A stretch of DNA of 64,000 nucleotides, taken from Heterodontus francisci (Eukaryota). The notes below the pieces were generated by a model that was given only the letters and a program-made list of their open reading frames with translations, ran no database searches and had not been told where the DNA came from. The DNA lies in NCBI RefSeq assembly GCF_036365525.1, contig NC_090416.1:15100945-15164944 (forward strand), written 5' to 3'. Below are positions 13,456 through 62,935 of the stretch, in pieces (the first letter of the stretch is position 1; each line of letters opens with the position of its first letter). The position numbers and the translations under genes are program-made.

Positions 13456-13784
13456 TCAGTCGGAACAAGCGGTGGAGCTGATGGTTTTGAGGAGAGGTGA
13501 GCTCAGAGAGCCGTGGTCCACACTGCAGGTATAGCTGGAGCCCTTATTCCAGGCAGTGGCGGGGACTCTCAGGTAACTGCTCAGGCTGCAGGTTTGATCA
13601 CTGTCCGTGGACACGGTGCCTGTGGTCACCCCGCTGTCTGTCTCTTTATCATCCACTCTCCAGAGAACCCGCATGAAACCTGGCTTAAAGCGGCACACCA
13701 GGCAGGTCAGAGTAGCCCATCCGGAGTCTACTTCTTCCGAGGAAGGAAGGAGCAGGAGAACCGATGGTTTCCGATCCTCACTAC
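13456..13784 (-). CDS. IgL constant exon C1
   Basis: SEDRKPSVLLLLPSSEEVDSGWATLTCLVCRFKPG...YTCSVDHGSL...STACSD*. Open, 329 nt, phase-1 acceptor. Confidence 0.93.
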
Positions 13785-15939
13785 CTGTTTGTGAGGGAAA
13801 AGAAAATTCATTAATATATAACCCATTAGCAGTGGGACAGATTGACCTGAAACCTGATTGGATGCTGCATTAACTCTCCTGATCCACATTAGCTTCAAAA
13901 TGAATTACTGATCCACTCAGGAGTTCCAATAAATTCTTAGATCTCTAGCTCCTGAGCTAATCTGTCAATTCCTTTTCCTACATTACAACAGTGACTACAC
14001 TTCAAAAATACTTCCATTGCCTGGAAAGCGCTTTGGATCCCGAGGACCTTAAAACTGCTTTACAAATGAGAGAATCGCAGACAGGGAGGGAGCAGCGGGA
14101 GACCATTCGGCCCATCGTGTATGTGCTGGCTTTTTGAAAGAGGTACCCAATTAGTCCCCACTCCACCCACTCTTTCTCCATAGCTGAGCCAATTTCTCCC
14201 CTTCACGTATTTATCCAATTCCCCTTTTGAAAGTTACTATTGAATCTGCTTCCACCGCCCTTTCAGGCAGCGCGTTCCAGATCACAACAACTCGCTGCGT
14301 TAAAAAAAAATTCTCCTCATCTCCCCCTCTGGTTCTTTTGCCAATTATCTTCAATCTGTGTCCCTCTGGTTACCGACCCTCCTGTCAGTGGAAACAGTTT
14401 CTCCTCATTTCCTCTGTCAAAACCCTTCATGATTTTGAACGCTCTGATTAAATCTCCCCTTAACCTTCTCTGCTCTAATGAGAACAATCCCAGATTCTCC
14501 CAGTCTCTCCACATTAACTGAAGTCCCTCATCCCTGGTCCCATTCTGGTAAGTCTCCCTCCGCACCTTCTCCCAAGACCTTGACAGTGTGACGTCCAGAA
14601 TTAGACCCAACACTCCAGCCGGGGCCTATCCAGTGATTTATAAAGGATTAATATATCCTCTTTGTTTTGTACGATCTGCCTCTATTAATAAAGTCCAGGA
14701 TCCCATCAGCTTTTCAAACAGATTTCTCATCGTGTGCTGCTGCCGTCAAAGATTAGCACACACTCAGCCCGGGGTCTCTCTTTTCCTGCACCCCCTTTAA
14801 AATTGTATCATGAACAAGGCAACCGTTCTTTCTGGTAAAATGTTAAGGTTAAAGAGGTGAATTCACGGAGCTGTGACCTGCTTTTCACGGAGTGTCATTT
14901 TTTCTCACATCACAAACAGCACAGATTCAACACAAAGATACCAGGGATAAAAGTGTTCAATTGTAAGGAATGGTAGCATAGACTAGACTAGTGTTCCCTG
15001 ACAACAGAAAATTGAGGGCCATTTGTTTGAACTCTTTCAGATGAATGTACTCAATGACTGAGCATTCACAGCGCCCTGTGAAGGCAGAACCTTCAAATTC
15101 GAGCCAGGCCTTTCAGGGATGATATCAGGGAGCATTTCCTCACACAAAGGGGAGTGGAAATCTGGAACTCTCTCCCCCCAAAGTGCTGTTGAGACTCGGA
15201 GAGGGATCAATTAGAAAATTCAAAACTGAGATTGATAGATTTTTGCTGGGGAAGGAGATTAAGGGTTACAGAACCAAGGGGTTAATATACAGATCAGCCA
15301 TGATTTAACTGAATGGTGGTTTAGACTGGAGGGGCTCAATGAGTTCAACCAAGGCCACTTAAAAAAAAAGAGTTATCTGGCCATTGCTGTTAGTGGGATC
15401 TTGCTGTGCGTAGATTGGCTTTCAGGGTCCTGAAAGGCATTAAGCCTTGCATTTCTAAAGAGCCTTTTACAACCTCAAGACTTCCCACAGCGCCTTAGAG
15501 CCAATTAAATACTTTTTGAAGTGTGCTCACTGTTGTAACGTAGAAACGCGGCAGCCAATTTAAGCACAGCAAGATCCCACAAGCAGCCAGACGATGAATA
15601 CCAGTTGCTCTGTTTTTACTGATATTGAGTGAGGGATAAATATTGTTCTCAGGAGATCTCCCTCTGCTCGATCAAAAGACAGCGCAGAGGCGAGAATGTT
15701 GTGGTTGACACAGGGATTGTTGGAAATGGAGAATGAAGAATAGTCTTAAACTAATTTTTGGACCAGTTCCTTTCCCCCAAAGCGGATTAATTCCATTCTG
15801 ACCTGTTTAACATTTCTGGGTATAAACATCAACATCAAAATTCGCTAAATGGAAATTCATCTGCCGCTCGGCAATAAAATCGGACATAAATGAATAATAA
15901 CTGAAACAATATGAATGCTCGGATGAGGGAATAACTTAC

Positions 15940-15976
15940 TCCGTATAATCAGGGCGGTCCCAGGTCCGAAGATCCA
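15940..15976 (-). CDS. IgL J segment 1 (WIFGPGTALIIR)
   Basis: FGxG motif and donor A|GTAAGT. Confidence 0.92.
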
Positions 15977-16015
15977 CACAGTGCAGCGTTTTAATGGGGC
16001 GTGTCACCTGAAACC
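15977..16015 (-). other. J1 recombination signal, 23-bp spacer
   Basis: Plus strand CACAGTG-23 bp-CCTGAAACC. Confidence 0.88.
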
Positions 16016-20610: not shown

Positions 20611-21164
20611 TCGTTTTATTTGTCAGGGCTCTGCTGGGTTCGCAGGAGGCTATTCAACCGCTACGTGCCGCACGATAACAGTTATGTTAATTAGAGCATC
20701 AATTCCTCTTCCTGTATCTCCCACACTCTGCTACAGAGATCGATGTCATCACTGATAGGCCCCAGACGTATCCAGGCATGACGTCCACACTCAGTTCCTG
20801 GCTTTTGACTGGAGATGTTGCACGAGATGATACGTGGGTTTTACAGTGAATGTGGCACCATCATTGCAACCTGCAGCTAATGACGGCCTGAGCCATTCGG
20901 CCCATTTACCCCGTACCATCTCTCTGAAGGAGCTCGCCTCTTAGTCCCCATTCACCAACCTTTTCAAATTTTCATCCTCCAGATATTTACCCATTTCCTT
21001 TTTCAAACCTATTCTGATTATGCTTCTACTGAGACAGTGCATGACCATTAACCTTCTGTGTAAACGATATTCGCCTGGCCTCTCCCTCAGTTCCTGTAGG
21101 GATGATGTTAAATTGATAGTGACTCACCAATCGCTGCAAAGATCTCTGAAGAGAGAGAGTGATG

Positions 21165-22055
21165 ATACAAAGCTCGGAGGAAAGGTAAGCTGTGAGGAGG
21201 AGATAGAGAGGCTGAAAAGGGGCATAGACTGGTTACATGAGTGGGTAGGAAAGTCGCAGATGGAGTATAAAGCGGAAAAGATTGAAATTATCCACTTTGA
21301 TAGGAAGAATAGAAAAGTAGAATCTTTTTTAAAAGGTGTGGGACTTGTAAATCTTGGTGTTCAAAGGGATTTGGTGTCATTGTACCCAAATCACAGACAG
21401 CTAACATGCAGGTACAACAAGCAATTAGGGAAGCAAATGGTATTGTTAGCCTTTAATGCAAGGGAGGTGGAGTATAAGAGGGTGGAAGTCATTCTGCAAT
21501 TGTACAGAGCTTTGGTGAGACCACACCTGGAGAACTGAGTGCAGGTTTGGTATCCCTACCTAAGGAAGGACACACTTGCCTTAGAGGCAGTAGAATGAAG
21601 GTTCACCAGATTGATTCCTGGGGTGAGAGGGTTGTCCTATGAGGAGAGATTGAGTAGAATGGGCCAATATTCTCGAGAGTTTGGAAGAATGAGAGATGAT
21701 CACATTGAAACATATAACATTAACAGGGTAGATGTTGAGAGGCTGTTTCCCCCTGGCTGCAGAGTCTGGAACTAGGGGGTCACAGTATCAGGATAAGGGC
21801 TCGGCCGTTTAGGGCTGAGATGAGAAGATATTTCTTTACTCAGAGGGTTGTCAATCTTTGGAATTCTCTACCCCAGAGAGCTGTGGGATGCTCAGTCATT
21901 GAGTATATTCAACACAAAGATCGATATATTATTGGGTGCTGAGGGAATCAAGGGATATGGGGAACGGGACGGAAAGTAGAATTGAGGTAGAAGATCTGAC
22001 ATGATTTGGTTAAATGACAGAACAGGCTCGAGGGGCCGAATGTCCTATTACTTAC
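21165..22055 (+). mobile_element. CR1 LINE 3' end
   Basis: DDTKLGG...LYRALVRPHLE and a CR1-type 3' UTR. Homologous copy at ~48165-49055. Confidence 0.85.
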
Positions 22056-22334
22056 TTCTTTGTTTAAAGGTCAAGAGGTGAGTGTACAATCCACAAAAAA
22101 ATGCATTATTGATTTAAAAGCTACTGTAGGCCATCAAACATTTATCTGCCCAGTTATATTCATAATGTTGATGATTCACATGGCTGAACAGCCAGGTTCC
22201 AGTCTGTATCTGTGATTGGTACTGATAGCATATCAGGCCAGGCCCTCGTCATCTGTCTATAGGGGACCTGGGCGGTGTTCTGAAAGCCTTATTTTAGCTC
22301 CTGATACCCAAATCGATGCTGTTTTTGCTTTGTT

Positions 22335-22500
22335 TGTGATGTGGTGCAGGTGGTGTGGTCACTCGCTGCAGGGGGTGGGAGAGGAGCCCCGGGGAGGAAC
22401 CGAAACCTCCCTGTTCACTGTCTGATAAGCAGCAGCGAGCAGCAGCATCTGGCCCCAGATCCCCAGATCTGAAACACCGCAGAGCCGACTGTGGTTTCAC
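22335..22500. promoter_or_regulatory. Candidate B-cell enhancer, copy 1 (EICE, E-boxes, RUNX, EBF-like)
   Basis: GGAACCGAAA 22396-22405, CAGGTG 22347, CATCTG 22446, TGTGGT at 22340, 22354 and 22490. Confidence 0.5.
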
Positions 22501-22827
22501 ACACAAATAGGACGGAAATCTCAGAAACACCGTTAAACCTTCACATTCTTGGCCACGTTGCACATTTACAACGAAACATCCCATTATATGGACTGGGCCC
22601 CTCTGGAGAACTGAACTGAACTCCTGCTTTAAAACACCCCTTTAAACGGAAATCTTTCACCGAACTTTTGGTCACCGGTCCCAATATCTCCTTATCTGGC
22701 TCAGTGGCAAATGTTGCCCTGTGAAGCGCCTTGGGACGTTTTACTAAGTTAAAGGTGCTATGTAAATGCAAGGGTGACACATGTGCTCTCAGCACTGAGC
22801 CACACAAGGTTAAGAAAGTTTAAGAAG

Positions 22828-29438: not shown

Positions 29439-29767
29439 TCAGTCGGAACAAGTGGTGGAGCTGATGGTTTTGAGGAGAGGTGAGCTCAGAGAGCCGTGGT
29501 CCACACTGCATGTATAGCTGGAGCCCTTATTCCAGGCAGTGGCGGGGACTCTCAGGTAACTGCTCAGGCTGTAGGTTTGATCACTGTCCGTGGACACGGT
29601 GCCTGTGGTCACCCCGCTGTCTGTCTCTTTATCATCCACTCTCCAGAGAACCCGCACGAAACCCGGCTTAAAGCGGCTCACCAGGCAGGACAGAGTAGCC
29701 CATCCGGAGTCTATTTCTTCCGAGGAAGGAGGGAGCAGGAGAACTGATGGTTTCCGATCCTCACTAC
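29439..29767 (-). CDS. IgL constant exon C2
   Basis: SEDRKPSVLLLPPSSEEIDSGWATLSCLVS...YTCSV...TTCSD*. PolyA signal (plus-strand TTTATT) at 29129-29134. Confidence 0.95.
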
Positions 29768-31773
29768 CTGTTTGTGAGGGAAAAGAAAATTCATTAATAT
29801 CTAACCCATTCGCAGTGGGACACCCGGACCTGAAATCTGATTGGACGCTGTATAAACCCTCCTGATCCACATTAACTTTAAAATGAATTACTGATCCACT
29901 CAGGAGTTCCAATAAATTCTCAGATCTGTCGTTGCTGAGCTAATCTGCCAATTCATTTTCCTACATTACAACAGTGACTACACTGCAAAAATACTTCATT
30001 TGCTGGAAAGCTCTTTGGATCCCGAGGACCTTAAAAGTGCTGTATAAATGAAAGAAGCACAGACTGGGAGGGAGCAGCGGGAGACGATTCGGCCCGTCGT
30101 GCCTGTGCTTGTTCTTTGAAAGAGCGATCCAATTAGTCCCCACTCCCCCCGCTCTGTCCCCCACATCCCTGCACATTGCTCCCCTTCCAGTATTTATCCA
30201 ATTCCCCTTTTGAAAGTTACTATTGAATCTGCTTCCACCGCCCTTTCAGGCAGCGCGATCCAGATCACAACAACTCGCTGTGTAAAAAAAATTCTCCTCA
30301 TCTCCCCCTCTGATTCTTTTACCAATTATCTTCAATCTGTGTCCCTCTGGTTACCGACCCTCCTGCCACTGGAAACAGTTTCTCCTTATTTACTCTAACA
30401 AAACCCTTCCTGACTTCGAACGCCCAGATTAAATCTCCCCCTTAACCTTCGCTGCTCTAAGGAGAACAATCCCAGCTTCTCCCAGTCTCTCCACATTAAC
30501 TGAAGTCCCTCATCCCTGGTCCCATTCAGGTAAATCTATCTCCACACTGTCTCCGAGGCCTCGACATCCTTCCTAAAGTGGAGTGCCCAGAATTGGACCC
30601 AATACTCCAGCTGAGGCGTAACCAGAGATTTAGAAAGGTTTAATACTCCGCTTTGTTTTGTCGGCTTTATTCATAAAGCCGAGGATTCCATCTGCTTTTT
30701 AAACAGCGTTTTGGAACTCTCTCCCCAAAAAAGGTGTCGAGGCTGCAGATGGGGGATGGCGGATGGTGTCAATTAGAAAATTCAAAACTAATATTGATAG
30801 ATTTTTTGGGGGGGATGGGGATAGAGGGCTCCAGAACCAAATAGTTCAGATAGAGATCTAACTGAATTGTGGAACAGACTCGAGGGGCGAAATGGCCTCC
30901 ACCTGTCTATCTAGTCTTTAATCTCGGATGGCGTACTTTTGAGCGGACATTCTGCCGAGGCCTCATCTGCCCCTCTCAGGTGGGTGTGAAAGATCCCACA
31001 GCCGCTCTTGGAAGACGAGTGTGTGGGGGGCGGGGGTTGGGAGGAGTTCTCCTGAGGACAATATTTACCCGTCACTCAATATCACAAAAAACAGAGTAAC
31101 TGGTGTTCATCGTAGGGCTGCTTGTGGGATCTTGCTGTGCTTAAAGTGGCTGCTGATTTTCCCAGATTGCAACAGAGGCCACACTTCAAAATGTATTTCA
31201 CTGGCGGTAAGGCGATTCGGGACCTCCTGAGGTTGTGAAAGGCGCTATAGAAATGCAAGTCTAGTGCCTTTCAGGACTCCGACAGCCAATCTACGCACAG
31301 CAAGATCCCAAAGAGAGCAATGAGATAATGACCAGATAATTCATTTTTTTAAAGTGGTCTTGGTTAAGGGATAAATATTGTTCCCAGGACACTGGGTAGA
31401 ACTCCGCCCACCCCCGCCCCTCAGCCGCTCTTCAAATAGAGGCCATGGCACATGTGACATCCACTTGAGAGGGGCAGACGGGGCCTGGGTTTAACGTCTC
31501 CATCAAAAGCCAGCACAGAGATGAGAATGTTGTGGTTGACCAGGGATTGTTGGAAATGGAGAATGAAGAATAGTCTTAAACTAATTTTTAGAACAGTTCC
31601 TTTCCCCAGAAGCAGATTAATTCCAATTCTGACCTGTTTAACATTTCTGGGTGTAAATAGATCCACCACCAAATTTCACGAAATCGAAATTCATCTGCCG
31701 CTCGGCAATAAAATCGACCATAAATGAATAATATTTGAAGCAATATGAATGATAGGATGAGGAAATCACTTAC

Positions 31774-31811
31774 TCCGTATATTCAGGGCGGTCCCAGGTC
31801 CGAAGGTCCAC
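31774..31811 (-). CDS. IgL J segment 2 (WTFGPGTALNIR)
   Basis: FGxG motif and donor GTAAGT. Confidence 0.93.
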
Positions 31812-31850
31812 CACAGTGCAGCGTTTTAATGGGACGGGTCACCTAAAACC
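31812..31850 (-). other. J2 RSS, 23-bp spacer
   Basis: Plus strand CACAGTG-23-CCTAAAACC. Confidence 0.9.
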
Positions 31851-32165
31851 AAGGCTGGGAAGAAAGAGGGGAAAATATTAATAATCTGTCCTTTATCTCA
31901 TTCCCTTTCACATTCTGTCTTTCACAGGGGCCGGAATGCTGAGAGGCTGGAGAAAGATTTTCACATCTCAGTGAGGAAACCCTGAGAATATCAGTGTTTA
32001 CCTACCCAGCTAATAGCCCAAATAACGGGGAAAATCCAAATAAACCCATGGAATTCCAGTGAGATTTTCCTCAAGTTACATAAGGAATATTTCTGAAACT
32101 CATCCCACAGTCTCAGGCAGGAATATTTCAGTAGCTGTTGGAATTCTGAGTGGTTCTGTTGGTGC

Positions 32166-32193
32166 AGTTTTTGTATTGCCCTGTCTCACTGTG
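32166..32193 (-). other. V2 RSS, 12-bp spacer
   Basis: CACAGTG AGACAGGGCAAT ACAAAAACT. Confidence 0.95.
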
Positions 32194-32521
32194 TATGTAG
32201 CTGCTGAGCCATCCCCGGCAGCACAGTAATAGACGGCGGAGTCTCCCGGTTCCAAGCTGCTGATGGTCAGAATGTGACTGTTACTGGAGGTGTCTCTGGA
32301 AGGTTGAAAACGGTCCGTGAAGCCGGTGCCTCGATAGATGCTACCATCTGGATCATGCCTTATCACCCACACCGGAGCCTCCCTGGGTCGCTGTCGGTAC
32401 CAGTACATGTAGTAACTGCCCACATTGCCGTTCTGCATCACACACTTTAACCGGGAGGTCTCACCGGCGGAGACTGGGTCAGAAGTTGGGGTCTGATTGA
32501 GGACAGGAACCGCCAGGACAC
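32194..32521 (-). CDS. IgL V segment 2 (type I/NS5/sigma-cart-like)
   Basis: VPVLNQTP...LKC...WYRQ...DSAVYYCAAGDGSAAT, open and followed by RSS12. Confidence 0.95.
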
Positions 32522-32665
32522 CTTCAACACAAAACACAAGAGAGAGAGAAAAACACATTCAGTATATTGGAGTAAATAGGTCATTCATACATCAATAAAC
32601 GTGGCTGCAAAACCGGCCCATTCTCGGTATTTAACAGATAATCTGTGCCGAAAACAATCTCTCAC

Positions 32666-32714
32666 CTGTTAAGTGGAGCAGCAGGGCCCACAGGAGATGC
32701 ATCACTGCAGCCAT
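32666..32714 (-). CDS. IgL leader exon 2 (MAAVMHLLWALLLHLT)
   Basis: Hydrophobic signal peptide and phase-1 donor G|GTGAG. Confidence 0.9.
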
Positions 32715-35309
32715 TCCACCGGAAAAAGCGACAACAGCAACCGCCCAAATGTCCGCCTGAACCTGTTGCTGTAAACTGGGAGAGCGGCTCCGCTTTTCCA
32801 ATGTTTAACCGCCAATTGCAGTTTGCGTTGCGGGAAGGTTCCAATATCCGAAGATATTTTGCATTTAATAACTATTTAGTCTGTCCCTCCCACAGAATCA
32901 GGTGGTGCGGGTTGTGGAGATACCGATTAACGGATTGACTTTGCCCTCAATCACGGGGGTAACGCGCTGTTAAACTCTAATAAAAACAGAAAGTGCAATT
33001 TCTGATTTCCAGCATCTGCAGTACTTTGTTTTTATTTAAGTGTTAAACTCTGAAATCCTGCTTCACATTTTAAAATGTTTCATTCCCCTAAGATACCCAT
33101 TTCAGAACTGGCTGACATCGTTTCTCTCAGTCAGCAGTAAGACAAACCTACATTTATCTATCCCTTTTTAACATTTGACCTCACATGGGATTTGGTCTTC
33201 AGCCTGTAAATAAATCTCGGATGAAAATACTCCTGAGGTGGAGGAAAGGACTCATTAGATAAACGGGAAAGGGTGAGGACATTATAGACCCTGCTCCAGT
33301 TCACAGAGAAGTTGTTATATTACAGCCTGAGTCACTCCTTCTAAAACACAGCAGGACAAATAAAACTTGCCACAGTATTATTAAATGACACTTTGCCTTT
33401 AAGTTGCTTCTGGTCCGATTAAGATGCCCTTTTAAACCCTGTTGGATTAGCGACAGGGTCAGGATCTGTGATGTTGGAAACTTTAAATCTGTTTAGTGTA
33501 ATTCCCTTACTCCCCACATTGAGTCTCGGTCCGCGTTTTTTAACAGACAGAGCGAATCAGGTTTGTATCAGTTACTTGAGATCGAAGGGAAAATGCATTA
33601 AATTGTTGATAAGTGGGTTGGCCGGAGGTATGAACTTGAAAGGAAAAATTATTTTTGTTAAATAATGACGTAACTATGAAGTGAGTTATCAGTGTAGTTA
33701 GAAAATCAATCCGAGCGGCGGGAAGAATTGTCACTCCCGGGAGCATCCCAGTGAATTTAGACAGAGATAGGTTCCCACATGGACAAGGAACTTTTCGGTG
33801 AAGATCAGACGCTTGTTTCTATGCTTGAACTGATCAGTGATTGCCCTGATCTGTTAACATTATTTAAGGGGCTGAGGTGCTCAGACTGAAGCTTCTCTCT
33901 CAGCCTTGGACAAAGACCGGGGGCTTTCTTACTGCTGACACCGACACTTCCTGACTGGACAACCAATCACAGCAGAGCACAGCTCACACCGGTAACTGCA
34001 CCTCGGGCAGCATTTGTTGCCTATCCCTAATTGCCCTTGACAATTGGATGTCTTGTTGGGCTATTTCAGCGGGTAGTTAATAGTCAACCACATTGCTGCG
34101 GGTCTGGAGTCACATGTAGGCCAGACCGAGTAAGGATGGTTGATTTCTTTCCCTAAAGGACATCAGTGAACCAGATGGTGTTTTGCAACAATAAATGATA
34201 CTTTCATGGCACCATTACTGAGACTAGCTTTCAATTCCAGATTTTTATTTAGTAAATGTAAACTCCGCCACAAGCTGTGGTGAAATTTGAACCCATGCCC
34301 CAATGCATTAGCCTGGGCCATTGGATTATTAGTCCATTGACATTACCAATTTTGCCACCGCCTCCTCTAACTGCAAAGCCACTTATAAGGTTGGCAGTCC
34401 TCAAAGTGGAAAAATCACCAGCTCAGGATGGGATTCATCTTTAATTGCTGAGGGAAGTAAGGGAGGACATGACGGATGCTCTGGTCACAATCTTCCAATC
34501 GCTCTTGAAAATAACTGGAGGCAAATGATACACCGTTGTTTAAAAAGTTAGAGATAAACCCAGCAACTACAGGCCAGTGACCATAATGTCGGTGCTGGGG
34601 AAAGGTTTCAAAACTATATTAATCTGGGACAAAATTCATTGCATTTGGAAATGTACGGGTTAGTTGCTGAAAGTCAATACGGATTTTATGTTTGAGTAAC
34701 TTGATCGAGTTCTCTGACGAGGTAAGTGAGAGGATTGATGAGGGCAGTGTATGGTGTTGTGTATGAGGACTTTCAAAAAGCATTTGACAAAGTATCACAT
34801 AATAGACTTAATGGTAAATTAAAGGATTAAAGGGACAGTAACAGCATGGTTAGAAAGTCAGAAAGGAACAGAAAGCAGAGAGTATTCAACACAGAGATCG
34901 ATATATTATTGGATGTTGAGGGAATCAGGGGATATGGGGAACGGCCGGGAAAGTGGAATTGAGGTAGAAGATCAGCCATGATTGTATTAAATGGCAGAAC
35001 AGGCTGGAGGGGCCGAATGCCCTATTACTTATTCTTATGTGTGAAAGTCAAGAACTGGGTGTGAAATCCGAAAAAGAGCTTTATTGAGTTAAAAGCTACT
35101 GTAGGTCATCAAACATTTATCCGTCCAGTTAAATCCACAATCTTGATGATTCACATGGCTAAATAGCCAGGTTCCAGACTGTGTCTGAGAATGGCACTGA
35201 ATGCAGCTCAGCTCAGGCCCTCGTCATCAACCACAGGGGACCTGGGCGGTGTTTTGAAAGCCTTATTTTAGATCCTGATACCCAAATCGATGCTGTTTTT
35301 GTCTTGTTT

Positions 35310-35475
35310 GTGAGGTGGCGCAGGTGGTTTGGTCACTCGCTGCAGGGGGTGGGAGAGGAGTCCCGGGGAGGATCCGAAACCTCCCTGTTCACTGTCTGAT
35401 AAGCAGCAGAGAGCAGCAGCATCTGGGCCCAGTTCCCCTGCTCTGAAACACCGCAGGACCGACTGTGGACACAAA
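35310..35475. promoter_or_regulatory. Candidate enhancer, copy 2 (degenerate)
   Basis: EICE changed to GGATCCGAAA (35370-35379) and the TGTGGT sites are altered. The E-boxes are kept. Confidence 0.35.
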
Positions 35476-35794
35476 CAGGACGGAAATCTCAGAAACACCG
35501 TTAAACGGTCACATTCTTGGACACGTCACACATTTACAACAAAACAACCCATTATCTGTACTGGGCCTCTCAGGAGAACTGAACTGAACTCCTGCTTCAA
35601 AACACTCCTCAAAACCTACCTCTTTAACCGAGCTTTTGGTCAGCTTTCCTAACACCTCCTTATCTGGCTCAGTGGCACATTTTGTCCTGTGAAATGCCTT
35701 GGGACGTTTTACTAAGTTAAAGGTGCCTTGTAAATGCAAGGGTGACGCCTGTGGTCTCAGCACTGACCCACACAAGGTTAAGAAAGTTTCAGAT

Positions 35795-41609: not shown

Positions 41610-41938
41610 TCAGTCGGAACAAGCGGTGGAGCTGATGGTTTTGAGGAGAGGTGAGCTCAGAGAGCCGTGGTCCACACTGCAGGTATAGCTGGAGCCCTTA
41701 TTCCAGGCAGTGGCGGGGACTCTCAGGTAACTGCTCAGGCTGTAGGTTTGATCACTGTCCGTGGACACGGTGCCTGTGGTCACCCCGCTGTCTGTCTCTT
41801 TATCATCCACTCTCCAGAGAACCCGCACGAAACCCGGCTTAAAGCGGCTCACCAGGCAGGACAGTGTAGCCCATCCCGAGTCTATTTCTTCCGAGGAAGG
41901 AGGGAGCAGGAGAACTGATGGTTTCCGATCCTCACTAC
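41610..41938 (-). CDS. IgL constant exon C3
   Basis: Open 329-nt C exon ending STACSD*. Confidence 0.95.
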
Positions 41939-44267
41939 CTGTTTGTGTGGGAATAGAAAATTCATTAATATATAACCCATTAGCAGTGGGACAGACTGAC
42001 CTGAAATCTGATTGGATGCTGCATTAACTCTCCTGATCCACATTAACTTTAAACTGAATTACTGATCCATTCAGTAGTTCCAATAAATTCTTAGGTCTCT
42101 CGTTCCTGAGCTCATCTGCCAATTCATTTTCCTCGAGTACAACAGTGACGATAGTTCAAAATTACTTCATTTGGATCCGAGGACCTTAAAACTGCTGCAT
42201 AAATGACCGAATCACAGACTGGGAGGGAGCAGCGGGAGTCCATTTTGCCCATCGTGTTGGCTCTTTGAAAGAGCTATCCAATTAGTTCCCGCTCCCCCCA
42301 CTCTTTCCCCATATCCTTGCAAAATTTCTCAATTTCATGTATTTGTCCAATTCCCCTATTAAAAGTTACTATTGAATCTGTTTCCATCGTCCTTTCAGGC
42401 AGCGTGTTCCAGATCGCAACAACTCGGTACGTTAAAAAAAACTCTCCTCATCTCCCCCTCTGGTTCTTTTACTAATTATCTTCAACCTGTGTCCTTCTGG
42501 TTACCGACCCTCCTGTCAGTGGAAACAGTTTCTCCTCATTTCCTCTGTCGAAACCCTTCCTGATTTTGAACGCCTCAGTTAAGTCTCCCCTTAACCTTCT
42601 CTGCTCCAAGCAGAACAATCCCAGCTTCTCCCAGTCTCTCCACATTAAGTGAAGTCCCTCATCCCTGGTCCCATTCTGGGAAATCTCCCTCCACACTCTC
42701 TCCAACACCTTGACAGTGTGATGCCCAGAATTAGACCCTATACTCCAGCCGGGGCCTATCCAGTGCTTTATAAAGCATTAATGCATCCACTTTGTTTTGT
42801 CCGCTTTGCCTCTATTAATAAAGTCCAGGATACCATCAGCTTTTCAAACAGATTCCTCAACGAGTGCTGCTTCCGACAAAGATTAGCGTACACACAGCCC
42901 CAGGTCTCTCTGTTCCTGCACCCTCTTTGAAATTGTATCATGAGCAAGACAACCTTTCTTTCGGATAAAATAAGAACAAGGAAAGCTGCAACTGCAGACT
43001 GGCTCAGTCAGTAAGTGTGAAGATTAGCAATTGGCCGCTTCAGATACAGTTCACAGCCCCGAACCCGCACTCAGCTGTCTGTACCCGATATAAACACTGA
43101 GCAACCGGCTGCATTTTCCAGCATTTCCACTTTATATTTACATATACATTTCCAATATTTGCTGGTTCTTTTTTGTTACCATTTGTATATAATGCCGCGT
43201 TTGCTTGTCTTAAAATGCAGTCAGTGTTAACGTGAAAGATGTGAATTCATGAAGCTGTGACCTGCTTTTAACTGAGTGTCCATATATTTTCTGACATCAC
43301 AAACAGCGCAGATTCAACACAAAGATACCGGGGATAAAAGGGTTCAATTGAAGTCTTGAAGATGAATGTACTCAATGACTGAGTATTCAAAGCGCCCTGT
43401 TAAAGCAGAACCTTCAAACTCGAGCCAGGCCGTTCAGGGATGATGTCAGGGAGCATTTCCTCACCCAAAGGGGAGTGGAAATCTGGAACTCTCTCCCCAA
43501 AAGTGCTGTTGAGACTCGGAGAGGGATCAATTAGCAAATTCAAAGCTGAGATTGCTAGATTTTTGCTGGAGAAGGCGATTAAGGGTTACAGAACCAAGGG
43601 GTTAATATACAGATCAGCCATCGTCTAACTGAATGGTGGATTAGACTGGAGGCCGCAATGATTTCAACCAAGTCCACTCTAAAATAAATTATCTGGTCAT
43701 TATCTCATTGCTGTTAGTGGGATCTTGCTGTGCGCAGATTGGCTGTCTGTGTCCTGAAAGGCACTAAGACTGGCATTTCTATAGCGCCATTCACAACCTC
43801 ATGACTTCCCAAAGCGCCTTAGAGACAATGAAATACTTTCTGAAGTGTGCTCACTGTTGCAATGTAGAAATGCGGCCGCCAATATTAGCACAGCACAATC
43901 CCAACATCAGCCCGACGATAAATACCAGTTACACTGTTTTTAGTGATACTGAGAGAGGGATAAATATTGTTCACAGGAGATCTCTCTCTGCTCGATCAAA
44001 AGACAGCGCAGAGACGAGAATGTTGTGGTTGACACAGGGATTGTTGGAAATGGAGAATGAAGAATACTCTTAAACTAATTTTTGGAACAGTTCCTTTCCC
44101 CCCGATGCGGAGTAATGCCAATTCTAACCTGTTTAACGTTTCTGGGTGTAAATAAATCCAACATCAAATTCGCGAAATCGAAATTCATCTGCCGCTCGGC
44201 AATAAAATTGGCCATAAATGAATAATAACTGAAACAATATGAATGATAGGATGAGGGAATTACTTAC

Positions 44268-44304
44268 TCCGTAAACTCAGGGCGGTCCCAGGTCCGAAGG
44301 TAAA
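44268..44304 (-). CDS. IgL J segment 3 (FTFGPGTALSLR)
   Basis: FGxG motif and donor GTAAGT. RSS23 at 44305-44343 (CACAGTG-23-CTTAAAACC). Confidence 0.93.
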
Positions 44305-44686
44305 CACAGTGCAGTGTTTTAATGGGACGGGTCACTTAAAACCCAGGCTGGGAAGAAAGAGGGGAAAATATTAATAATCTGTCCTTTATCACATTCCCTT
44401 TCACATTCTGCCTTTCACAGGGGCCGGAATGCTGAGAGTCTGGAGAAAGATTTTCACATATCAGTGAGAAAACCCTGAGAATATCAGTGTTTACCTACCC
44501 AGCTAATAGTCCAAATATTGGGGAAAATCCAAATAAACCCATGGAATTCCAGTGACATTTTCCTCAAGTTACATAAGGAATATTTCTGAAACTCATTCCA
44601 CAGTCTCAGGCAGGAATATTTCAGTAGCTGTTGGAATTCTGAGTGGTTCAGTTGGTGCAGTTTTTGTATTGCCCTGTCTCACTGTG

Positions 44687-45015
44687 TATGTAGCCTGCTG
44701 AGCTATCCCAGGCAGCACAGTAATAGACGGCGGAGTCTCCCGGTTCCAAGCTGCCGATGGTCAGAATGTGACTGTTACTGGAGGTGTCTCTGGAAGGTTT
44801 AAAACGGTCCGTGAAGCCGGTGCCTCGATAGATGTCATCATCTGGTTGGTGCTCTAACACCCACACCGGAGCCTCCCCGGGTCTCTGTCGGTACCAGTAC
44901 ATGTAGTAACTGCCCACATTGCCGTTCTGCATCGCACACTTTAACTCGGAGGTCTCACCGGTGGAGACTGGGTCGGAAATTGGGGTCTGATTGAGGACAG
45001 GAACCGCCAGGACAC
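44687..45015 (-). CDS. IgL V segment 3
   Basis: Open V ending CAAWDSSAGYI. RSS12 at 44659-44686. Confidence 0.95.
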
Positions 45016-45157
45016 CTTCAACACAAAACACAAGAGAGAGAAAAACACATTCAGTTTATTGGAGTAAATAGGTCATTCATACATCAATAAACATGGCTGT
45101 AAAACCGGCCCATTCTCGGTATTTAACGGCTAATCTGTGCCTAAAACAATCTCTCAC

Positions 45158-45206
45158 CTGTTAAGTGGAGCAGCAGGGCCCACAGGAGATGCATCACTGC
45201 AGCCAT
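45158..45206 (-). CDS. IgL leader exon 3
   Basis: MAAVMHLLWALLLHLT G|GTGAG. Confidence 0.9.
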
Positions 45207-45317
45207 TCCACCGGAAAAAGCGACAACAGCAACTGCCCAAATGTCTGCCTGAACCTGTTGGTGTAAACTGGGAGAGCGGCTCCGCTTCCAGTGTCTGTAA
45301 ACCAGAGACTCCGGGTC

Positions 45318-45340
45318 TATTTATTGCCCGGTATGCAAAT
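45318..45340 (-). promoter_or_regulatory. IgL promoter: octamer + TATA-like box
   Basis: ATTTGCAT on the coding strand (45333-45340, light-chain orientation), followed by AATAAATA. Confidence 0.85.
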
Positions 45341-48034: not shown

Positions 48035-49334
48035 AGAGTGCATGTCCATTAACCCTCTTTGTAAATGATATTCGCCTGGCCTCTCCCTCAGTTCTTGTGG
48101 GTATGATTTTAAATTCATAGTGACTCACCAATCGCTGCAAACATCTCTGAAGAGAGAGAGAGTGATGATACAAAGCTCGGTGGAAAAATAAGCTTTGAGG
48201 AGGAGATAGAGAGGCTGTAAAGGACATGGACCGGCTAAGTGAGTGGGTAGGAAAGTCGCATATGGAGTATAAAGTGGGAAAATGTGAAATTATCCACATT
48301 GATAGGAAGAACAAAAAAGTAGATTTTTTTTTAAAAGTTGAGGGACTGGAAAATGTTGGTATTCAAAGGGATTTGGGTGTCATTGTACTCAAATCACAGA
48401 CAGTTAACATGCAGGTACAACAAGCAATTAGGAAAGCAAATTGTTTTGATAGCCTTTATTGCACGAGTGGTGGAGTATAAGAGGAAGGAAGCCTTTCAGC
48501 AATTGTACTGAGCTTTGGTGAGACCACACCTGGAGACATGCGCGCAGGATTGGTCTCCTACCTAAGGAAGGACACACTTGCCTTGGAGGGAATAGAATGA
48601 AGTTTCACGAGATTGCTTCCTTTGGTGACAGGGTTGTCCTATGAGAAGAGATTGAGTAGAATGGGCCAATACCCTATCGAGTTTAGCAGAATGAGAGATG
48701 ATAACAATTAAACATAACATTAACAGGGTAGATGTTGAGAGGCTGTTTCCCCCTGGCTGCAGAGTCTAGAACTAGGGAGTCACAGTCTCAGGATAAGGGC
48801 TTGGCCATTTCGGGCTGAGATGAGAAGACATTTCTTCACTCAGAGGGTTGTCAATCTTTGGAATTCTCTACCCCAGAAAGCTGTGGAGGCTCAGTCCTTG
48901 ATTATATTCAACACAGAGATCGATATATTATTGGGTGCTGAGGGAATCAGGGAATATGGGGAACAGGCGGGGAAGTGGAATTGAGGTAGAAGATCTGACA
49001 TGATTTGGTTAAATGGCAGAACAGGCTCGAGGGGCCGAATGTACTATTACTTATTTCTTTGTTTAAAGGTCAAGAGGTGAGTGTACAATCCACAAAAAAT
49101 TCATTATTGATTTAAAAGCTACTGTAGGCGATCAAACATTTATCCGTCCAGTTAAATCCAGAATGTTGATGATTCACATGGCCGAACAGCCAGGTTCCAG
49201 ACTGGGTCTGAGAATGGCACTGAATGCAGCTCAGCTCAGGCCCTCGTCATCAACCACAGGGGACCTGGGCGGTGTTCTGAAAGCCTTATTTTAGATCCTG
49301 ATACCCAAATTGAAGCTGTTTTTGGCTTGTTTGT

Positions 49335-49450
49335 GATGTGGTGCAGGTGTTGTGGTCACTCGCTGCAGGGAGTGGGAGAGGAACCCCGGGGAGGAACTGA
49401 AACCTCCCTGTTCACTTTCTGATAAGCAGCAGAGAGAAGCAGCATCTGGG
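49335..49450. promoter_or_regulatory. Candidate enhancer, copy 3
   Basis: GAGGAACTGAAAC 49391-49403, CAGGTG 49344, CATCTG 49443, TGTGGT at 49337 and 49351. Confidence 0.55.
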
Positions 49451-49800
49451 CCCAGTTCCCCTGCTCTGAAACACACAGAAACAGGACGGAAATCTCAGAA
49501 ACACCGTTAAACGGTTACATTCTTGGACACGTCACACATTTACAACAAAACAACCCATTATCTGGACTGGGCCCCTCAGGAGAACTGAACTGAACTCCTG
49601 CTTTAAAACACTCGTTAAAACCTACCTCTTTCACCGAGCTTTTGGTCATTTCTCCGAATGCCACCTTATCTGGCTCAGTGCAATTTTTATCCTCTGAAGC
49701 GCCTTGGGACGTTTTACTAAGATAACGGTGCGATGTAAATGCAAGGGTGACACATGTGCTCTCAGCATTGACCCACACAAGGTTAAGAAAGTTTCAGAAG

Positions 49801-55064: not shown

Positions 55065-55393
55065 TCAGTCGGAACAAGCGGTGGAGCTGATGGTTTTGAG
55101 GAGAGGTGAGCTCAGAGAGCCGTGGTCCACACTGCAGGTATAGCTGGAGCCCTTATTCCAGGCAGTGGCGGGGACTCTCAGGTAACTGCTCAGGCTGTAG
55201 GTTTGATCACTGTCCGTGGACACGGTGCCTGTGGTCACCCCGCTGTCTGTCTCTTTATCATCCACTCTCCAGAGAACCCGCACGAAACCCGGCTTAAAGT
55301 GGCTCACCAGGCAGGACAGAGTAGCCCATCCGGAGTCTATTTCTTCTGAGGAAGGAGGGAGCAGAAGAACTGATGGTTTCCGATCCTCACTAC
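55065..55393 (-). CDS. IgL constant exon C4
   Basis: Open 329-nt C exon ending STACSD*. Confidence 0.95.
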
Positions 55394-57723
55394 CTGTTTT
55401 TGAGGGAAAAGAAAATTCATTAATATATAACCCATTCGCAGTGGGACACTCTGAGCTGAAATCTGATTGGATGCTGCATTAACTCTCCTTATTCACATTA
55501 ACTTTAAACTGAATTACTGATCCATTCTGTAGTTCCAATAAATTCTTAGGTCTCTCGTTCCTGAGCTCATCTGCCAATTCATTTTCCTCGAGTACAACAG
55601 TGACGATAGTTCAAAATTACTTCATTTGGATCCGAGGACCTTAAAACTGCTGCATAAATGACCGAATCACAGACTGGGAGGGAGCAGCGGGAGTCCATTT
55701 TGCCCATCGTGTTGGCTCTTTGAAAGAGCTATCCAATTAGTTCCCGCTCCCCCCACTCTTTCCCCATATCCTTGCAAAATTTCTCAATTTCATGTATTTG
55801 TCCAATTCCCCTATTGAAAGTTACTATTGAATCTGTTTCCACCGTCCTTTCAGGCAGTGCGTTCCAGATTGCAACAACTCGGTACGTTAAAAAAAACTCT
55901 CCTCATCTCCCCCTCTGGTTCTTTTACTAATTATCTTCAACCTGTGTCCTTCTGGTTACCGACCCTCCTGTCAGTGGAAACAGTTTCTCCTCATTTCCTC
56001 TGTCGAAACCCTTCCTGATTTTGAACGCCTCAGTTAAGTCTCCCCTTAACCTTCTCTGCTCCAAGCAGAACAATCCCAGCTTCTCCCAGTCTCTCCACAT
56101 TAAGTGAAGTCCCTCATCCCTGGTCCCATTCTGGGAAATCTCCCTCCACACTCTCTCCAACACCTTGACAGTGTGATGCCCAGAATTAGACCCTATACTC
56201 CAGCCGGGGCCTATCCAGTGCTTTATAAAGCATTAATGCATCCACTTTGTTTTGTCCGCTCTGCCTCTATTAATAAAGTCCAGGATACCATCAGCTTTTC
56301 AAACAGATTCCTCAATGAGTGCTGCTTCCGACAAAGATTAGCGTACACACAGCCCCAGGTCTCTCTGTTCCTGCACCCTCTTTGAAATTGTATCATGAAC
56401 AAGACAACCTTTCTTTCGGATAAAATAAGAACAAGGAAAGCTGCAACTGCAGACTGGCTCAGTCAGTAAGTGTGAAGATTAGCAATTGGCCGCTTCAGAT
56501 ACAGTTTACAGCCCCGAACCCGCACTCAGCTGTCTGTACCCGATATAAACACTGAGCAACCGGCTGCATTTTCCAGTATTTCCACTTTATATTTACATAT
56601 ACATTTCCAATATTTGCTGGTTCTTTTTTGTTACCATTTGTATATAATGCCGCGTTTGCTTGTCTTAAAATGCAGTCAGTGTTAACGTTAAAGATGTGAA
56701 TTCATGGAGCTGTGACCTGCTTTTAACTGAGTGTCCATATATTTTCTGACATCACAAACAGCGCAGATTCAACACAAAGATACCGGGGATAAAAGGGTTC
56801 AATTGAAGTCTTGAAGATGAATGTACTCAATGACTGAGTATTCAAAGCGCCCTGTTAAAGCAGAACCTTCAAACTCGAGCCAGGCCGTTCAGGGATGATG
56901 TCAGGGAGCATTTCCTCACACAAAGGGGAGTGGAAATCTGGAACTCTCTCCCCCAAAGTGCTGTTGAAACTCGGAGAGGGATCAATTAGCAAATTCAAAG
57001 CTGAGGTTGCTAGATTTTTGCTGGAGAAGGCGATTAAGGGTTACAGAACCAAGGGGTTAATATACAGATCAGCCATCGTCTAACTGAATGGTGGATTAGA
57101 CTGGAGGCCGCAATGATTTCAACCAAGTCCACTCTAAAATAAATTATCTGGTCATTATCTCATTGCTGTTAGTGGGATCTTGCTGTGCGCAGATTGGCTG
57201 TCTGTGTCCTGAAAGGCACTAAGACTGGCATTTCTATAGCGCCTTTCACAACCTCATGACTTCCCAAAGCGCCTTAGAGACAATGAAATACTTTCTGAAG
57301 TGTGCTCACTGTTGCAATGTAGAAATGCGGCCGCCAATATTAGCACAGCACAATCCCAACATCAGCCCGACGATAAATACCAGTTACACTGTTTTTAGTG
57401 ATACTGAGAGAGGGATAAATATTGTTCACAGGAGATCTCTCTCTGCTCGATCAAAAGACAGCGCAGAGACGAGAATGTTGTGGTTGACACAGGGATTGTT
57501 GGAAATGGAGAATGAAGAATACTCTTAAACTAATTTTTGGAACAGTTCCTTTCCCCCTGATGCGGAGTAATGCCAATTCTAACCTGTTTAACGTTTCTGG
57601 GTGTAAATATATCCAACATCAAATTCGCGAAATCGAAATTCATCTGCCGCTCGGCAATAAAATTGGCCATAAATGAATAAATAATTGAAACAATATGAAT
57701 GATAGGATGAGGGAATTACTTAC

Positions 57724-57760
57724 TCCGCAAACTCAGGGCGGTCCCAGGTCCGAAGATCCA
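57724..57760 (-). CDS. IgL J segment 4 (WIFGPGTALSLR)
   Basis: FGxG motif. RSS23 at 57761-57799. Confidence 0.93.
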
Positions 57761-58142
57761 CACAGTGCAGCATTTTAATGGGACGGGTCACCTAAAACCC
57801 AGGCTGGGAAGAAAGAGGGGAAAATATTAATAATCTGTCCTTTATCACATTCCCTTTCACATTCTGTCTTTCACAGGGGCCGGAATGCTGACAGCCTGCA
57901 GAAAGATTTTCACATATCAGTGAGGAAACCCTGAGAATATCAGTGTTTACCTACCCAGCTAATAGTCCAAATATTGGGGAAAATCCAAATAAACCCATGG
58001 AATTCCAGTGACATTTTCCTCAAGTTACATAAGGAATATTTCTGAAACTCATTCCACAGTCTCAGGCAGGAATATTTCAGTAGCTGTTGAAATTCTGAGT
58101 GGTTCTGTTGATACAGTTTTTGTATTGCCCTGTCTCACTGTG

Positions 58143-58470
58143 TATGTCGCTGCTGAGCTATCGTAGGCAGCACAGTAATAGACGGCGGAGTCTTCCGGTT
58201 CCAAGCTGCTGATGGTCAGAATGTGACTGTTACTGGAGGTGTCTCTGGAAGGTTTAAAACGGTCCGTGAAGCCGGTGCCTCGATAGATGTCATCATCTGG
58301 TTGGTGCTCTAACACCCACACCGGAGCCTCCCCGGGTCTCTGTCGGTACCAGTACATGTAGTAACTGCCCACATTGCCGTTCTGCATCGCACACTTTAAC
58401 TCGGAGGTCTCACCGGTGGAGACTGGGTCGGAAATTGGGGTCTGATTGAGGACAGGAACCGCCAGGACAC
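58143..58470 (-). CDS. IgL V segment 4
   Basis: Open V ending CAAYDSSAAT. RSS12 at 58115-58142. Confidence 0.95.
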
Positions 58471-58612
58471 CTTCAACACAAAACACAAGAGAGAGAAAAA
58501 CACATTCAGTTTATTGGAGTAAATAGGTCATTCATACATCAATAAACATGGCTGTAAAACCGGCCCATTCTCGGTATTTAACGGCTAATCTGTGCCTAAA
58601 ACAATCTCTCAC

Positions 58613-58661
58613 CTGTTAAGTGGAGCAGCAGGGCCCACAGGAGATGCATCACTGCAGCCAT
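58613..58661 (-). CDS. IgL leader exon 4
   Basis: MAAVMHLLWALLLHLT. Octamer at 58788-58795. Confidence 0.9.
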
Positions 58662-59476
58662 TCCACCGGAAAAAGCGACAACAGCAACTGCCCAAATGTC
58701 TGCCTGAACCTGTTGGTGTAAACTGGGAGAGCGGCTCCGCTTCCAGTGTCTGTAAACCAGAGACTCCGGGTCTATTTATTGCCCGGTATGCAAATGAGTG
58801 GGAGGGGCCAGAAAAACCTTGGCGGCAGATTCATCTTTCAAGATTGGGTTTAAAATCTATTTGTGTTTGATTACATATTTGTTAAAATCTTAACCTTTGC
58901 TTTGCCAATGTTTAATCGCCAATTGCAGTTTGCGTTGCGGGAAGGTTCCAATATCCGAAGATTTTTTGCGTTTAATAAATATTTCGTCTGTCCCTCCCCC
59001 AGAATCAGGAGGTGCGGGTTGTTGAGATACGAATTTATGGATTGACTTTGCCCTCAATCACGGGGGTAACGCGCTGTTAAGCTCTAATCAAAACAGAAAG
59101 TGCAATTTCAGATTTCCAGCATCTGTAGTATTTTGCTTTTATTTTAGTGTTAAACTCTGAAATCCTGCTTCACATTTTAAAATGTTCCATTCCCCTAAAA
59201 TACCCATGTCACAAGAGGCTGACACCCGTTTCTCTCAGTCAGCAGCAAGAGAAACCTACATTTATCCATCCCTTTTTAACATTTGACCTCACATGGGATT
59301 TGGTCTTCAGCCTGTAAATAAATCTCGGGTGAAAATATTCCTGAGGTGGAGGAAAGGACTCATTAGATAAACGGGAAAGGGTGAGGATGATGAGGGACAT
59401 TATAGTCCCTGCTCCAGTTCACAGAGAAGTTGTTATATTACAGCCTGAGTCACTCCTTCTAAAACACAGCAGGACA

Positions 59477-59676
59477 NNNNNNNNNNNNNNNNNNNNNNNN
59501 NNNNNNNNNNNNNNNNNNNNNNNNNNNNNNNNNNNNNNNNNNNNNNNNNNNNNNNNNNNNNNNNNNNNNNNNNNNNNNNNNNNNNNNNNNNNNNNNNNNN
59601 NNNNNNNNNNNNNNNNNNNNNNNNNNNNNNNNNNNNNNNNNNNNNNNNNNNNNNNNNNNNNNNNNNNNNNNNNNNN
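59477..59676. other. Assembly gap (200 N, round placeholder size)
   Basis: Run of N flanked by a direct duplication. Confidence 1.
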
Positions 59677-62600: not shown

Positions 62601-62935
62601 TTTTAGTGTTAAACTCTGAAATCCTGCTTCACATTTTAAAATGTTCCATTCCCCTAAAATACCCATGTCACAAGAGGCTGACACCCGTTTCTCTCAGTCA
62701 GCAGCAAGAGAAACCTACATTTATCCATCCCTTTTTAACATTTGACCTCACATGGGATTTGGTCTTCAGCCTGTAAATAAATCTCGGGTGAAAATATTCC
62801 TGAGGTGGAGGAAAGGACTCATTAGATAAACGGGAAAGGGTGAGGATGATGAGGGACATTATAGTCCCTGCTCCAGTTCACAGAGAAGTTGTTATATTAC
62901 AGCCTGAGTCACTCCTTCTAAAACACAGCAGGACA
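59677..62935. repeat. Direct duplicate of 56218-59476 (J 61183-61219, V 61602-61929, leader 62072-62120, octamer 62247-62254); probably a contig-overlap artifact
   Basis: Constant offset of 3459 bp and identical ORF translations. One copy ends at the gap and the other begins at it. Confidence 0.85.
61602..61929 (-). CDS. IgL V segment, copy identical to V4
   Basis: Same translation as 58143-58470. RSS12 at 61574-61601. Confidence 0.75.

What the first reader, a model, noticed from the sequence alone, without database searches (positions are those of the whole stretch)
22335..22500. Candidate shark equivalent of the light-chain 3' enhancer (PU.1/IRF EICE + E-boxes + RUNX + EBF-like), one per unit
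Seen: within ~160 bp of non-repeat-looking DNA lie GGAAnnGAAA, an adjacent CCCnnGGGA, CAGGTG, CATCTG, TGATAA and 2-3 TGTGGT. The copy at 49391 reads GAGGAACTGAAAC. Known: the mammalian kappa 3' enhancer core is a PU.1/IRF4 site (GAGGAACTGAAAA) with a nearby CATCTG E-box. Without the CR1 insertion the block would sit ~2.1 kb 3' of the C stop. Inference: deep conservation or convergence of IgL enhancer logic.
Basis: partly seen in the sequence, partly recalled or inferred. Interest (0 to 1): 0.7.

Follow-up and report, generated by a model that had tools for sequence, protein, structure and literature searches.

The report
Candidate per-cluster shark light-chain enhancer
A 500-base non-coding stretch carrying B-cell factor motifs is repeated about once per antibody light-chain gene cluster in this shark and was kept, though flipped, when the clusters diverged, so it is likely an enhancer (activity untested), but it is not a counterpart by descent of the mammalian kappa 3' enhancer on present evidence.

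Summary
The motifs are real and belong to a larger, sharply bounded, non-repeat island (window 22128-22628). The genome search found 46 copies, all at this type I light-chain locus, against 45 C exons plus one broken one. Between the two cluster subfamilies, only three segments stay about 95% identical: V-J, C and this island, which is inverted. Both E-boxes are kept in 46 of 46 copies and the Ets-IRF word in 42 of 46. The '3 prime' label is only half right: in the 37-cluster array the island lies about 2.7 kb 3' of C, but in this window's group it lies 5' of V on the opposite strand, and the outermost and isolated clusters have no 3' copy. The flagged copy sits between two damaged clusters. 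Motif spacing resembles Ig-lambda enhancers at least as much as kappa 3'; no NF-kB site. Against: motif bases are no better conserved than their neighbours, gene conversion explains the high identity, no distant shark was testable, and one copy is also a spliced non-coding exon. Best reading: a per-cluster B-cell enhancer, probability about 0.65, activity untested.

The parts
22128..22628 (.). Conserved non-repeat island, copy B1 (the whole candidate enhancer)
   Evidence: Boundaries from alignment with array copies
22330..22470 (.). Motif-dense core of the island
   Evidence: 92-96.5% identical to 6 other copies; variable columns 21 of 141 against 54 of 219 in the left flank, p=0.03
22394..22406 (+). 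Ets-IRF composite-like word GAGGAACCGAAAC
   Evidence: GGAAnnGAAA kept in 42 of 46 copies
22347..22352 (+). E-box CAGGTG, flanked by RUNX-like TGTGGT at 22340 and 22354
   Evidence: 46 of 46 copies
22446..22451 (+). E-box CATCTG, 50 bp after GGAA
   Evidence: 46 of 46 copies
22423..22428 (+). GATA-like TGATAA
   Evidence: 44 of 46 copies
22512..22519 (+).
   Evidence: 46 of 46 copies
22288..22297 (-). MEF2-like AT-rich 10-mer (one mismatch to a recalled consensus; found post hoc)
   Evidence: 36 of 36 copies examined; the same 10-mer follows the octamer in the IgH enhancer alignment
22176..22182 (+). Third E-box-like word TCACATG (post hoc)
   Evidence: 45 of 46 copies
22465..22500 (-). Splice-acceptor-like site; the equivalent site is used in copy B7 outside the window
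   Evidence: not shown used in this copy
35103..35596 (.). Island copy B2: Ets core and both RUNX words broken
49126..49602 (.). Island copy B3: GAGGAACTGAAAC version
13459..16015 (-). Cluster 1: J and C only; V and promoter absent; no island 3' of it
29442..32800 (-). Cluster 2: open V, J, C; promoter lacks the octamer (about 157 bp missing)
41613..45340 (-). Cluster 3: octamer promoter, V, J, C intact
55068..58795 (-). Cluster 4: octamer promoter, V, J, C intact
20950..22060 (+). LINE (CR1-like) 3' fragment bounding the island region on the left
   Evidence: Reverse-transcriptase-like frame, repeat depth; family name recalled
22630..22770 (+). SINE/L2-like tail bounding the island on the right
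   Evidence: Repeat depth; family name recalled

Best explanation
The flagged block is the core of a 500-bp non-coding island present about once per type I light-chain cluster, and it is likely the B-cell enhancer of its cluster (activity untested). Shown: copy number tracks the C exons; the island is the only non-repeat segment outside V-J, C and a weakly alignable promoter that two diverged cluster subfamilies share; it has flipped and changed side between them. Inferred: PU.1/Spi-B with IRF4/8 would bind the composite word, E2A-family and RUNX proteins the flanking words, and the complex would contact the octamer promoter of the nearest V (2.5-4.3 kb away in this window's group; across the 3-kb gene in the array) to open the cluster for V-J joining and drive transcription. 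By analogy with Ig-lambda enhancers it may also target hypermutation. Inferred: selection kept the island alignable and gene conversion then kept it near-identical, as for the exons. The flagged copy itself may be idle, because both neighbouring clusters are damaged.
For: 46 copies against 45 C exons plus one broken C, all on one contig; by my comparison of those coordinate lists 37 of 37 array C exons have a copy 3' of them. Array unit against small-group unit: only V-J (856 bp, 94.6%), C (447 bp, 96.4%) and the island (477 bp, 95.8%, inverted) exceed 80% over 80 bp or more; a 939-bp non-repeat run upstream of the promoter is not retained at all. Motif cluster 0 of 5000 shuffles, 0 of 770 tiles; among 74 Ets-IRF words in 664 kb, scores of 5 or more occur only in island copies. 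Core less variable than left flank in 6 small-group copies (p=0.03); in 23 array copies diversity 0.0125 against 0.0276 in the distal flank (p=0.0005). Clusters rearrange and splice in RNA-like contigs. Ig enhancers use E-box, PU.1-IRF4, MEF2 and NF-kB words and work in either orientation, upstream or downstream (PMC3972084, passages). One array copy carries the small-group (B4/B5) version of the core, as conversion predicts.
Against: No activity, binding or chromatin data. Motif columns are no better conserved than other core columns (6 of 41 against 15 of 100, p=1). Core against rest of island not significant (p=0.2). In the array the island is not less diverse than the C-proximal flank (0.0125 against 0.0161, p=0.6). 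Comparisons among converting paralogues are not independent. The E-box/Ets-IRF/E-box triad occurs 226 times in the genome, about 184 outside the island, largely in unrelated repeats. No NF-kB word. No homologue in 200 kb around other Ig-like C exons. The spliced RNA comes from a copy whose IRF half-site is broken, and one array cluster with intact V, octamer and RSS has a 3' copy with a broken IRF half-site.
Confidence: 0.65

Rival explanations
1. Neutral passenger: a piece of unique DNA carried along in cluster duplications, moved by a chance inversion and kept similar by gene conversion alone.
For: Conversion is evident (sharp 95% tracts including the V-J spacer); motif bases not specially conserved; proximal flank as invariant as the island in the array.
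Against: Other non-repeat runs of the unit were lost or diverged while this one was kept whole; 45 of 46 copies are full length; the kept piece is the one with a rare B-cell motif cluster.
Confidence: 0.13
2. The island is kept as part of a non-coding transcript (splice acceptor plus terminal exon) rather than as an enhancer.
For: One RNA-like contig (run X6) joins a 267-nt upstream exon to 340 nt of copy B7 across a 618-nt GT..AG intron; run X5 contigs break at the same two places. Acceptor-like site present in 35 of 36 copies by a loose pattern.
Against: The upstream exon is unique to B7 in the DNA fetched and its donor lies in a repeat tail; the nearby poly(A)-like word is outside the shared island; all three frames have stops; the exon would be sense to the Ig gene in one subfamily and antisense in the other; no Rfam match near threshold. 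One sample, one study. Enhancers often give such RNAs (general knowledge).
Confidence: 0.1
3. The island is an insulator or loop anchor (CTCF-type) separating neighbouring clusters.
For: One per cluster, between clusters; a CTCF-like 13-mer at 22365 by a recalled consensus.
Against: That word is the less conserved one (40 of 46) and mismatches the consensus start; the dominant words are B-cell activator sites.
Confidence: 0.06
4. True descendant of the same ancestral element as the mammalian kappa 3' (or lambda) enhancer.
For: Copies B3-B5 match 12 bp of the mouse kappa 3' PU.1-IRF4 site and 12 bp of the mouse lambda 3-1 site; a second E-box about 50 bp downstream as in lambda enhancers; 3' of C in the array.
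Against: Different isotype; 42 of 46 copies do not include more than the short word, and most read CC not CT in the spacer; no NF-kB; E-box spacing differs from kappa; no homologue at other Ig loci of this genome.
Confidence: 0.06

Closest known systems
Ig-lambda enhancers / DIVAC elements (human, mouse, chicken; PMC3972084)
   Same: PU.1-IRF4 word ending GAAAC; E-box upstream and E-box about 50 bp downstream; a MEF2-like AT-rich word; compact size; 3' of C in the array.
   Different: No NF-kB word; upstream E-box 49 bp away; RUNX, GATA and second Ets words added; 46 copies, one per cluster; 5' and antisense in one subfamily; activity untested.
Mammalian Ig-kappa 3' enhancer
   Same: GAGGAACTGAAA matches copies B3-B5; CATCTG E-box downstream.
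   Different: E-box 25 bp after GGAA in mouse against 50 bp here; NF-kB word absent; locus is type I, not kappa; most copies read GGAACCGAAAC.
Teleost Ig enhancers (catfish IgH, cod light chain; recalled, not read)
   Same: Fish Ig loci with E-box-rich enhancers in positions that differ from mammals.
   Different: Recalled as octamer/E-box based; no sequence comparison made.
Type I / NS5 (sigma-cart) light-chain clusters of sharks and skates
   Same: V-J-C cluster with 12- and 23-spacer RSS; C exon 98-100% identical to proteins labelled Heterodontus francisci and 69% to skate 'type I'.
   Different: About 45 clusters here against four NS5 genes in nurse shark (PMC2435157, passage). The type I = NS5 = sigma-cart equation is recalled.

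Membership tests
Ig-kappa 3' enhancer | Belongs to a kappa locus | tested here: not met
   C exon matches type I / lambda-like labelled chains
Ig-kappa 3' enhancer | PU.1-IRF4 composite word | tested here: met
   42 of 46 copies; reference sequence
Ig-kappa 3' enhancer | CATCTG E-box about 25 bp after the Ets core | tested here: not met
   Present but at 50 bp
Ig-kappa 3' enhancer | Lies 3' of the C exon it serves | tested here: inconclusive
   True for 37 array clusters (2.2-3.8 kb in the 17 measured); not for the window's group, whose outermost and isolated clusters have only a 5' copy
Ig-kappa 3' enhancer | Alignable sequence outside the motifs | not tested
   No mammalian sequence was available to the alignment tools; by eye only the 12-bp word matches
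Ig-lambda enhancer / DIVAC | PU.1-IRF4 word with E-box about 50 bp downstream and an upstream E-box | tested here: met
Ig-lambda enhancer / DIVAC | NF-kB site | tested here: not met
   No consensus match within 100 bp of the Ets-IRF word in any copy listed
Ig-lambda enhancer / DIVAC | MEF2 site | tested here: inconclusive
   No full consensus match; a 9-of-10 word in 36 of 36 copies
Ig enhancer (functional class) | Position- and orientation-independent, B-cell-specific activation; hypermutation targeting | not testable with these tools
   Natural inversion and change of side are consistent but are not an assay
Transposable element / dispersed repeat | Many dispersed copies or similarity to neighbouring repeats | tested here: not met
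   the genome search skips very common words, and no repeat library was available
Structured or coding RNA family | Rfam match or conserved reading frame | tested here: not met
   Best Rfam E 0.12, far below gathering score; 23-bp indel among copies and stops in all frames

The most novel reading that the evidence does not exclude
Every rearranging type I light-chain cluster of this shark carries its own portable enhancer and hypermutation-targeting module, which evolves like a third exon (kept and homogenised by gene conversion), works from either side and orientation, and is the element whose chance activation picks one cluster among about 45 in a B cell. It would be the first defined Ig enhancer of a cartilaginous fish.
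Probability: 0.3. Interest if true: 0.72.

Novelty: new member of a known kind. Interest (0 to 1): 0.5.

Why it matters
Sharks keep Ig genes as many small clusters, and how one cluster is chosen per B cell is open; PMC2435157 proposes rare formation of a promoter-enhancer complex but, in the passages read, names no shark enhancer. A 477-bp element with defined ends, natural variants that break single motifs, and two natural orientations makes that idea directly testable with reporter and hypermutation assays. It would also date the PU.1/IRF plus E-box logic of light-chain control to before the split of cartilaginous and bony fish, whether by descent or convergence.

Tried and rejected
No holder on record as RNA was listed by the run search. 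Run X8 shows no contig over the island in either lay; contigs show presence only, so this is not used as evidence of tissue specificity, and contig depths were not used to rank expression. Organism B (one run, small share, laid): contigs cover the island at 90-95% and C at 97%, so it is a close relative with no neutral baseline; its contig passes the array-type boundary by only 24 letters, too few to count as bridging. Island profile against 200 kb around nine other Ig-like C loci: best E 0.41; only 10-20 kb around each was examined, so farther elements are not excluded. Similarity to repeats carrying the same motif triad: none. Within-array statistic (right flank 0.42 variable) was inflated by one locus with an insertion; one search drops it (L023; L018 was left out of both because it is truncated) and replaces it. 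Pairing test by decay: 2 of 4 copies 5' of damaged clusters have a broken composite word against 0 of 4 beside intact ones, too few to count. Association with the neighbouring joined VJ-C1 genes rejected: 8 genes, no one-to-one copy. Earlier-findings look-ups by place and sequence were empty. Literature searches that found no shark Ig enhancer paper; the library lacks most subscription papers, and PMC2736800 on kappa enhancers was not held.

Full report
Setting. The window is G000:C46:15100945-15164944. It holds light-chain V-J-C clusters on the minus strand with 12- and 23-spacer RSS. The C exon is 98-100% identical to proteins that the database labels Heterodontus francisci and 69% identical to skate 'type I' light chain; equating type I with nurse shark NS5 and sigma-cart is recalled.

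Observation. The window has three copies for four C exons; the copy at 35103-35596 has GGAT for GGAA and has lost both RUNX words. With a fixed list of eight motif types the block scores 6; 0 of 5000 dinucleotide shuffles and 0 of 770 background tiles of 501 bp exceed 4. The list was partly chosen after seeing the block; with E-box and RUNX words only, the score 4 was again reached by 0 of 5000 shuffles. A pattern tuned to the block (E-box, Ets-IRF, E-box) has 226 matches in 6.0 Gb, about 184 outside the island and largely in unrelated repeats, so the words alone do not prove function.

Copy number and place. Two DNA searches each gave 46 candidates (40 scored each), all scored ones on C46; I recovered 46 distinct copies. 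A protein search found 45 near-identical C exons and one frameshifted one. Eight copies belong to a small group (15.04-15.25 Mb, including the window) and 38 to a tandem array of 37 clusters (16.27-16.88 Mb). In the array the island is on the gene's strand, 2.2-3.8 kb (mostly 2.7) 3' of the C stop in the 17 units measured and 10-12 kb from the next V in the 8 measured; both array ends carry a copy. In the small group it is on the opposite strand and nearer the V promoter; the order is island-V-J-C, the outermost cluster has no 3' copy, and an isolated inverted duplicate has one copy 5' of V and none 3'. These last two facts are not independent, since the duplicate is a copy of cluster 1. The flagged copy lies between cluster 1, which lacks V and promoter, and cluster 2, whose promoter lacks the octamer.

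Retention. Comparing one array unit with one small-group unit, three segments are about 95% identical: V to J (856 bp), C (447 bp) and the inverted island (477 bp); all other hits of 80 bp or more are 57-74% and almost all repeat-masked; the promoter and leader intron align only weakly, and a 939-bp non-repeat run is not retained. The sharp tract edges and near-identical V-J spacer indicate old divergence with gene conversion (inference); one array copy carries the B4/B5 version of the core. The island's ends are sharp (window 22128 and 22628) and abut different repeats in each subfamily; 45 of 46 copies are full length. Over 46 copies: CAGGTG 46, CATCTG 46, ACGGAAAT 46, GATA 44, Ets core 44, Ets-IRF 42, EBF-like 20 (the RUNX patterns there were looser, and the strict count was 34 of 36 for each of two words).

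Constraint tests are mixed. In six small-group copies the core has 21 of 141 variable columns against 54 of 219 in the left flank (p=0.03), but against the rest of the island p=0.2, and motif columns vary as much as other core columns (6 of 41, 15 of 100). In 23 of the 38 array copies diversity is 0.0125 in the island, 0.0276 in the distal flank (p=0.0005) and 0.0161 in the C-proximal flank (p=0.6, which replaces). Paralogues that convert are not independent samples.

Sequencing runs. Runs X5, X6 and X8 (RNA by guess; one sample, one study, the same sample label as the best DNA holders) contain leader-V and J-C splice joints and V-J joints with added letters, so these clusters rearrange; the leader ends listed are of the array type. 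X5 has a 375-nt contig identical to copy B7, and X6 a 629-nt contig that joins a 267-nt upstream exon to 340 nt of the island across a 618-nt GT..AG intron; its far end carries array-type letters, so it may be a mosaic of paralogues. The RNA is non-coding. B7 lies 49 kb from the nearest, truncated C and has a broken IRF half-site. RNA from the flagged copy was not tested. One run of a second, closely related organism holds the island.

Mechanism. Shown: position, copy number, inversion, retention, motif content. Inferred: binding by PU.1/Spi-B with IRF4/8, E-proteins and RUNX; contact with the octamer promoter; control of rearrangement, transcription and possibly hypermutation. Basis: PMC3972084 (passages and supplementary figures S4 and S5 read) shows that Ig enhancers and DIVACs need E-box, PU.1-IRF4, MEF2 and NF-kB words and act in either orientation and position; PMC5142813 (passages) reports E2A and PU.1 at kappa enhancers. 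I put the enhancer reading at 0.65, neutral passenger 0.13, non-coding exon 0.10, insulator 0.06, true kappa or lambda orthologue 0.06.

Comparison. The mouse kappa 3' site GAGGAACTGAAAAC has CATCTG 25 bp after GGAA; lambda enhancers have an E-box about 50 bp downstream and the mouse 3-1 site reads AGGAACTGAAAC. The shark island has its E-box at 50 bp and no NF-kB word. It works like, at most, an Ig light-chain enhancer; membership of the kappa 3' family fails on isotype and spacing. No homologue was found in 200 kb around other Ig-like C exons of this genome.

Novelty. Six searches (listings seen) found no paper describing a shark Ig enhancer; PMC2435157, PMC3308330 and PMC3014032 were read as passages only and name none. 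Subscription literature is mostly outside the library, so absence from print is not established. Two unchecked scan notes on other shark genomes report similar words near light-chain clusters; they are leads only. Verdict: a real, well-bounded candidate enhancer, new member of a known kind, interest 0.5.

Noticed in passing
window 7108-7860 (minus); seven more at C46:15009906-15095916: A family of eight genes with a germline-joined V-J-like exon and a C1 exon about 100 bp apart, interleaved with the light-chain clusters; about 30% identical to the light chain; resembles non-rearranging VJ-C1 receptor genes (recalled). Not named by any search.
   Followed up: partly
window 16033: Cluster 1 has lost its V exon and promoter (about 1 kb); J with RSS and C remain.
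   Followed up: yes
window 32792; C46:15040236: Cluster 2 and the isolated inverted cluster have open V frames but promoters without the octamer.
   Followed up: yes
window 56218-62935: A 3259-bp 100% identical duplicate (J, V, promoter) on both sides of the 200-N stretch; possibly an assembly artefact.
   Followed up: no
L066, C46:16884780-16885190 (minus): Divergent V-like frame (about 53% identity) that appears joined to a J-like end, at the upstream end of the array.
   Followed up: partly
C46:16.27-16.88 Mb: A homogeneous tandem array of 37 type I clusters with a period of about 16.5 kb; nurse shark has only four NS5 genes by PMC2435157.
   Followed up: partly
L050:5518-6776 and on to about 9700: Spliced non-coding RNA through island copy B7, with a donor inside a repeat tail and an end 16 nt past a poly(A)-like word.
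   Followed up: partly
C46:15001008-15001325: Frameshifted C exon without V, J or island nearby.
   Followed up: no
window 22760: The repeat tail beside the island contains ATGTAAAT, a one-mismatch octamer (recalled as functional in a catfish enhancer); absent from array copies.
   Followed up: no
L072/L073, C34:15414337: An unrelated Ets-IRF word with two E-boxes and several GATA words about 15 kb from another light-chain-like C exon.
   Followed up: no
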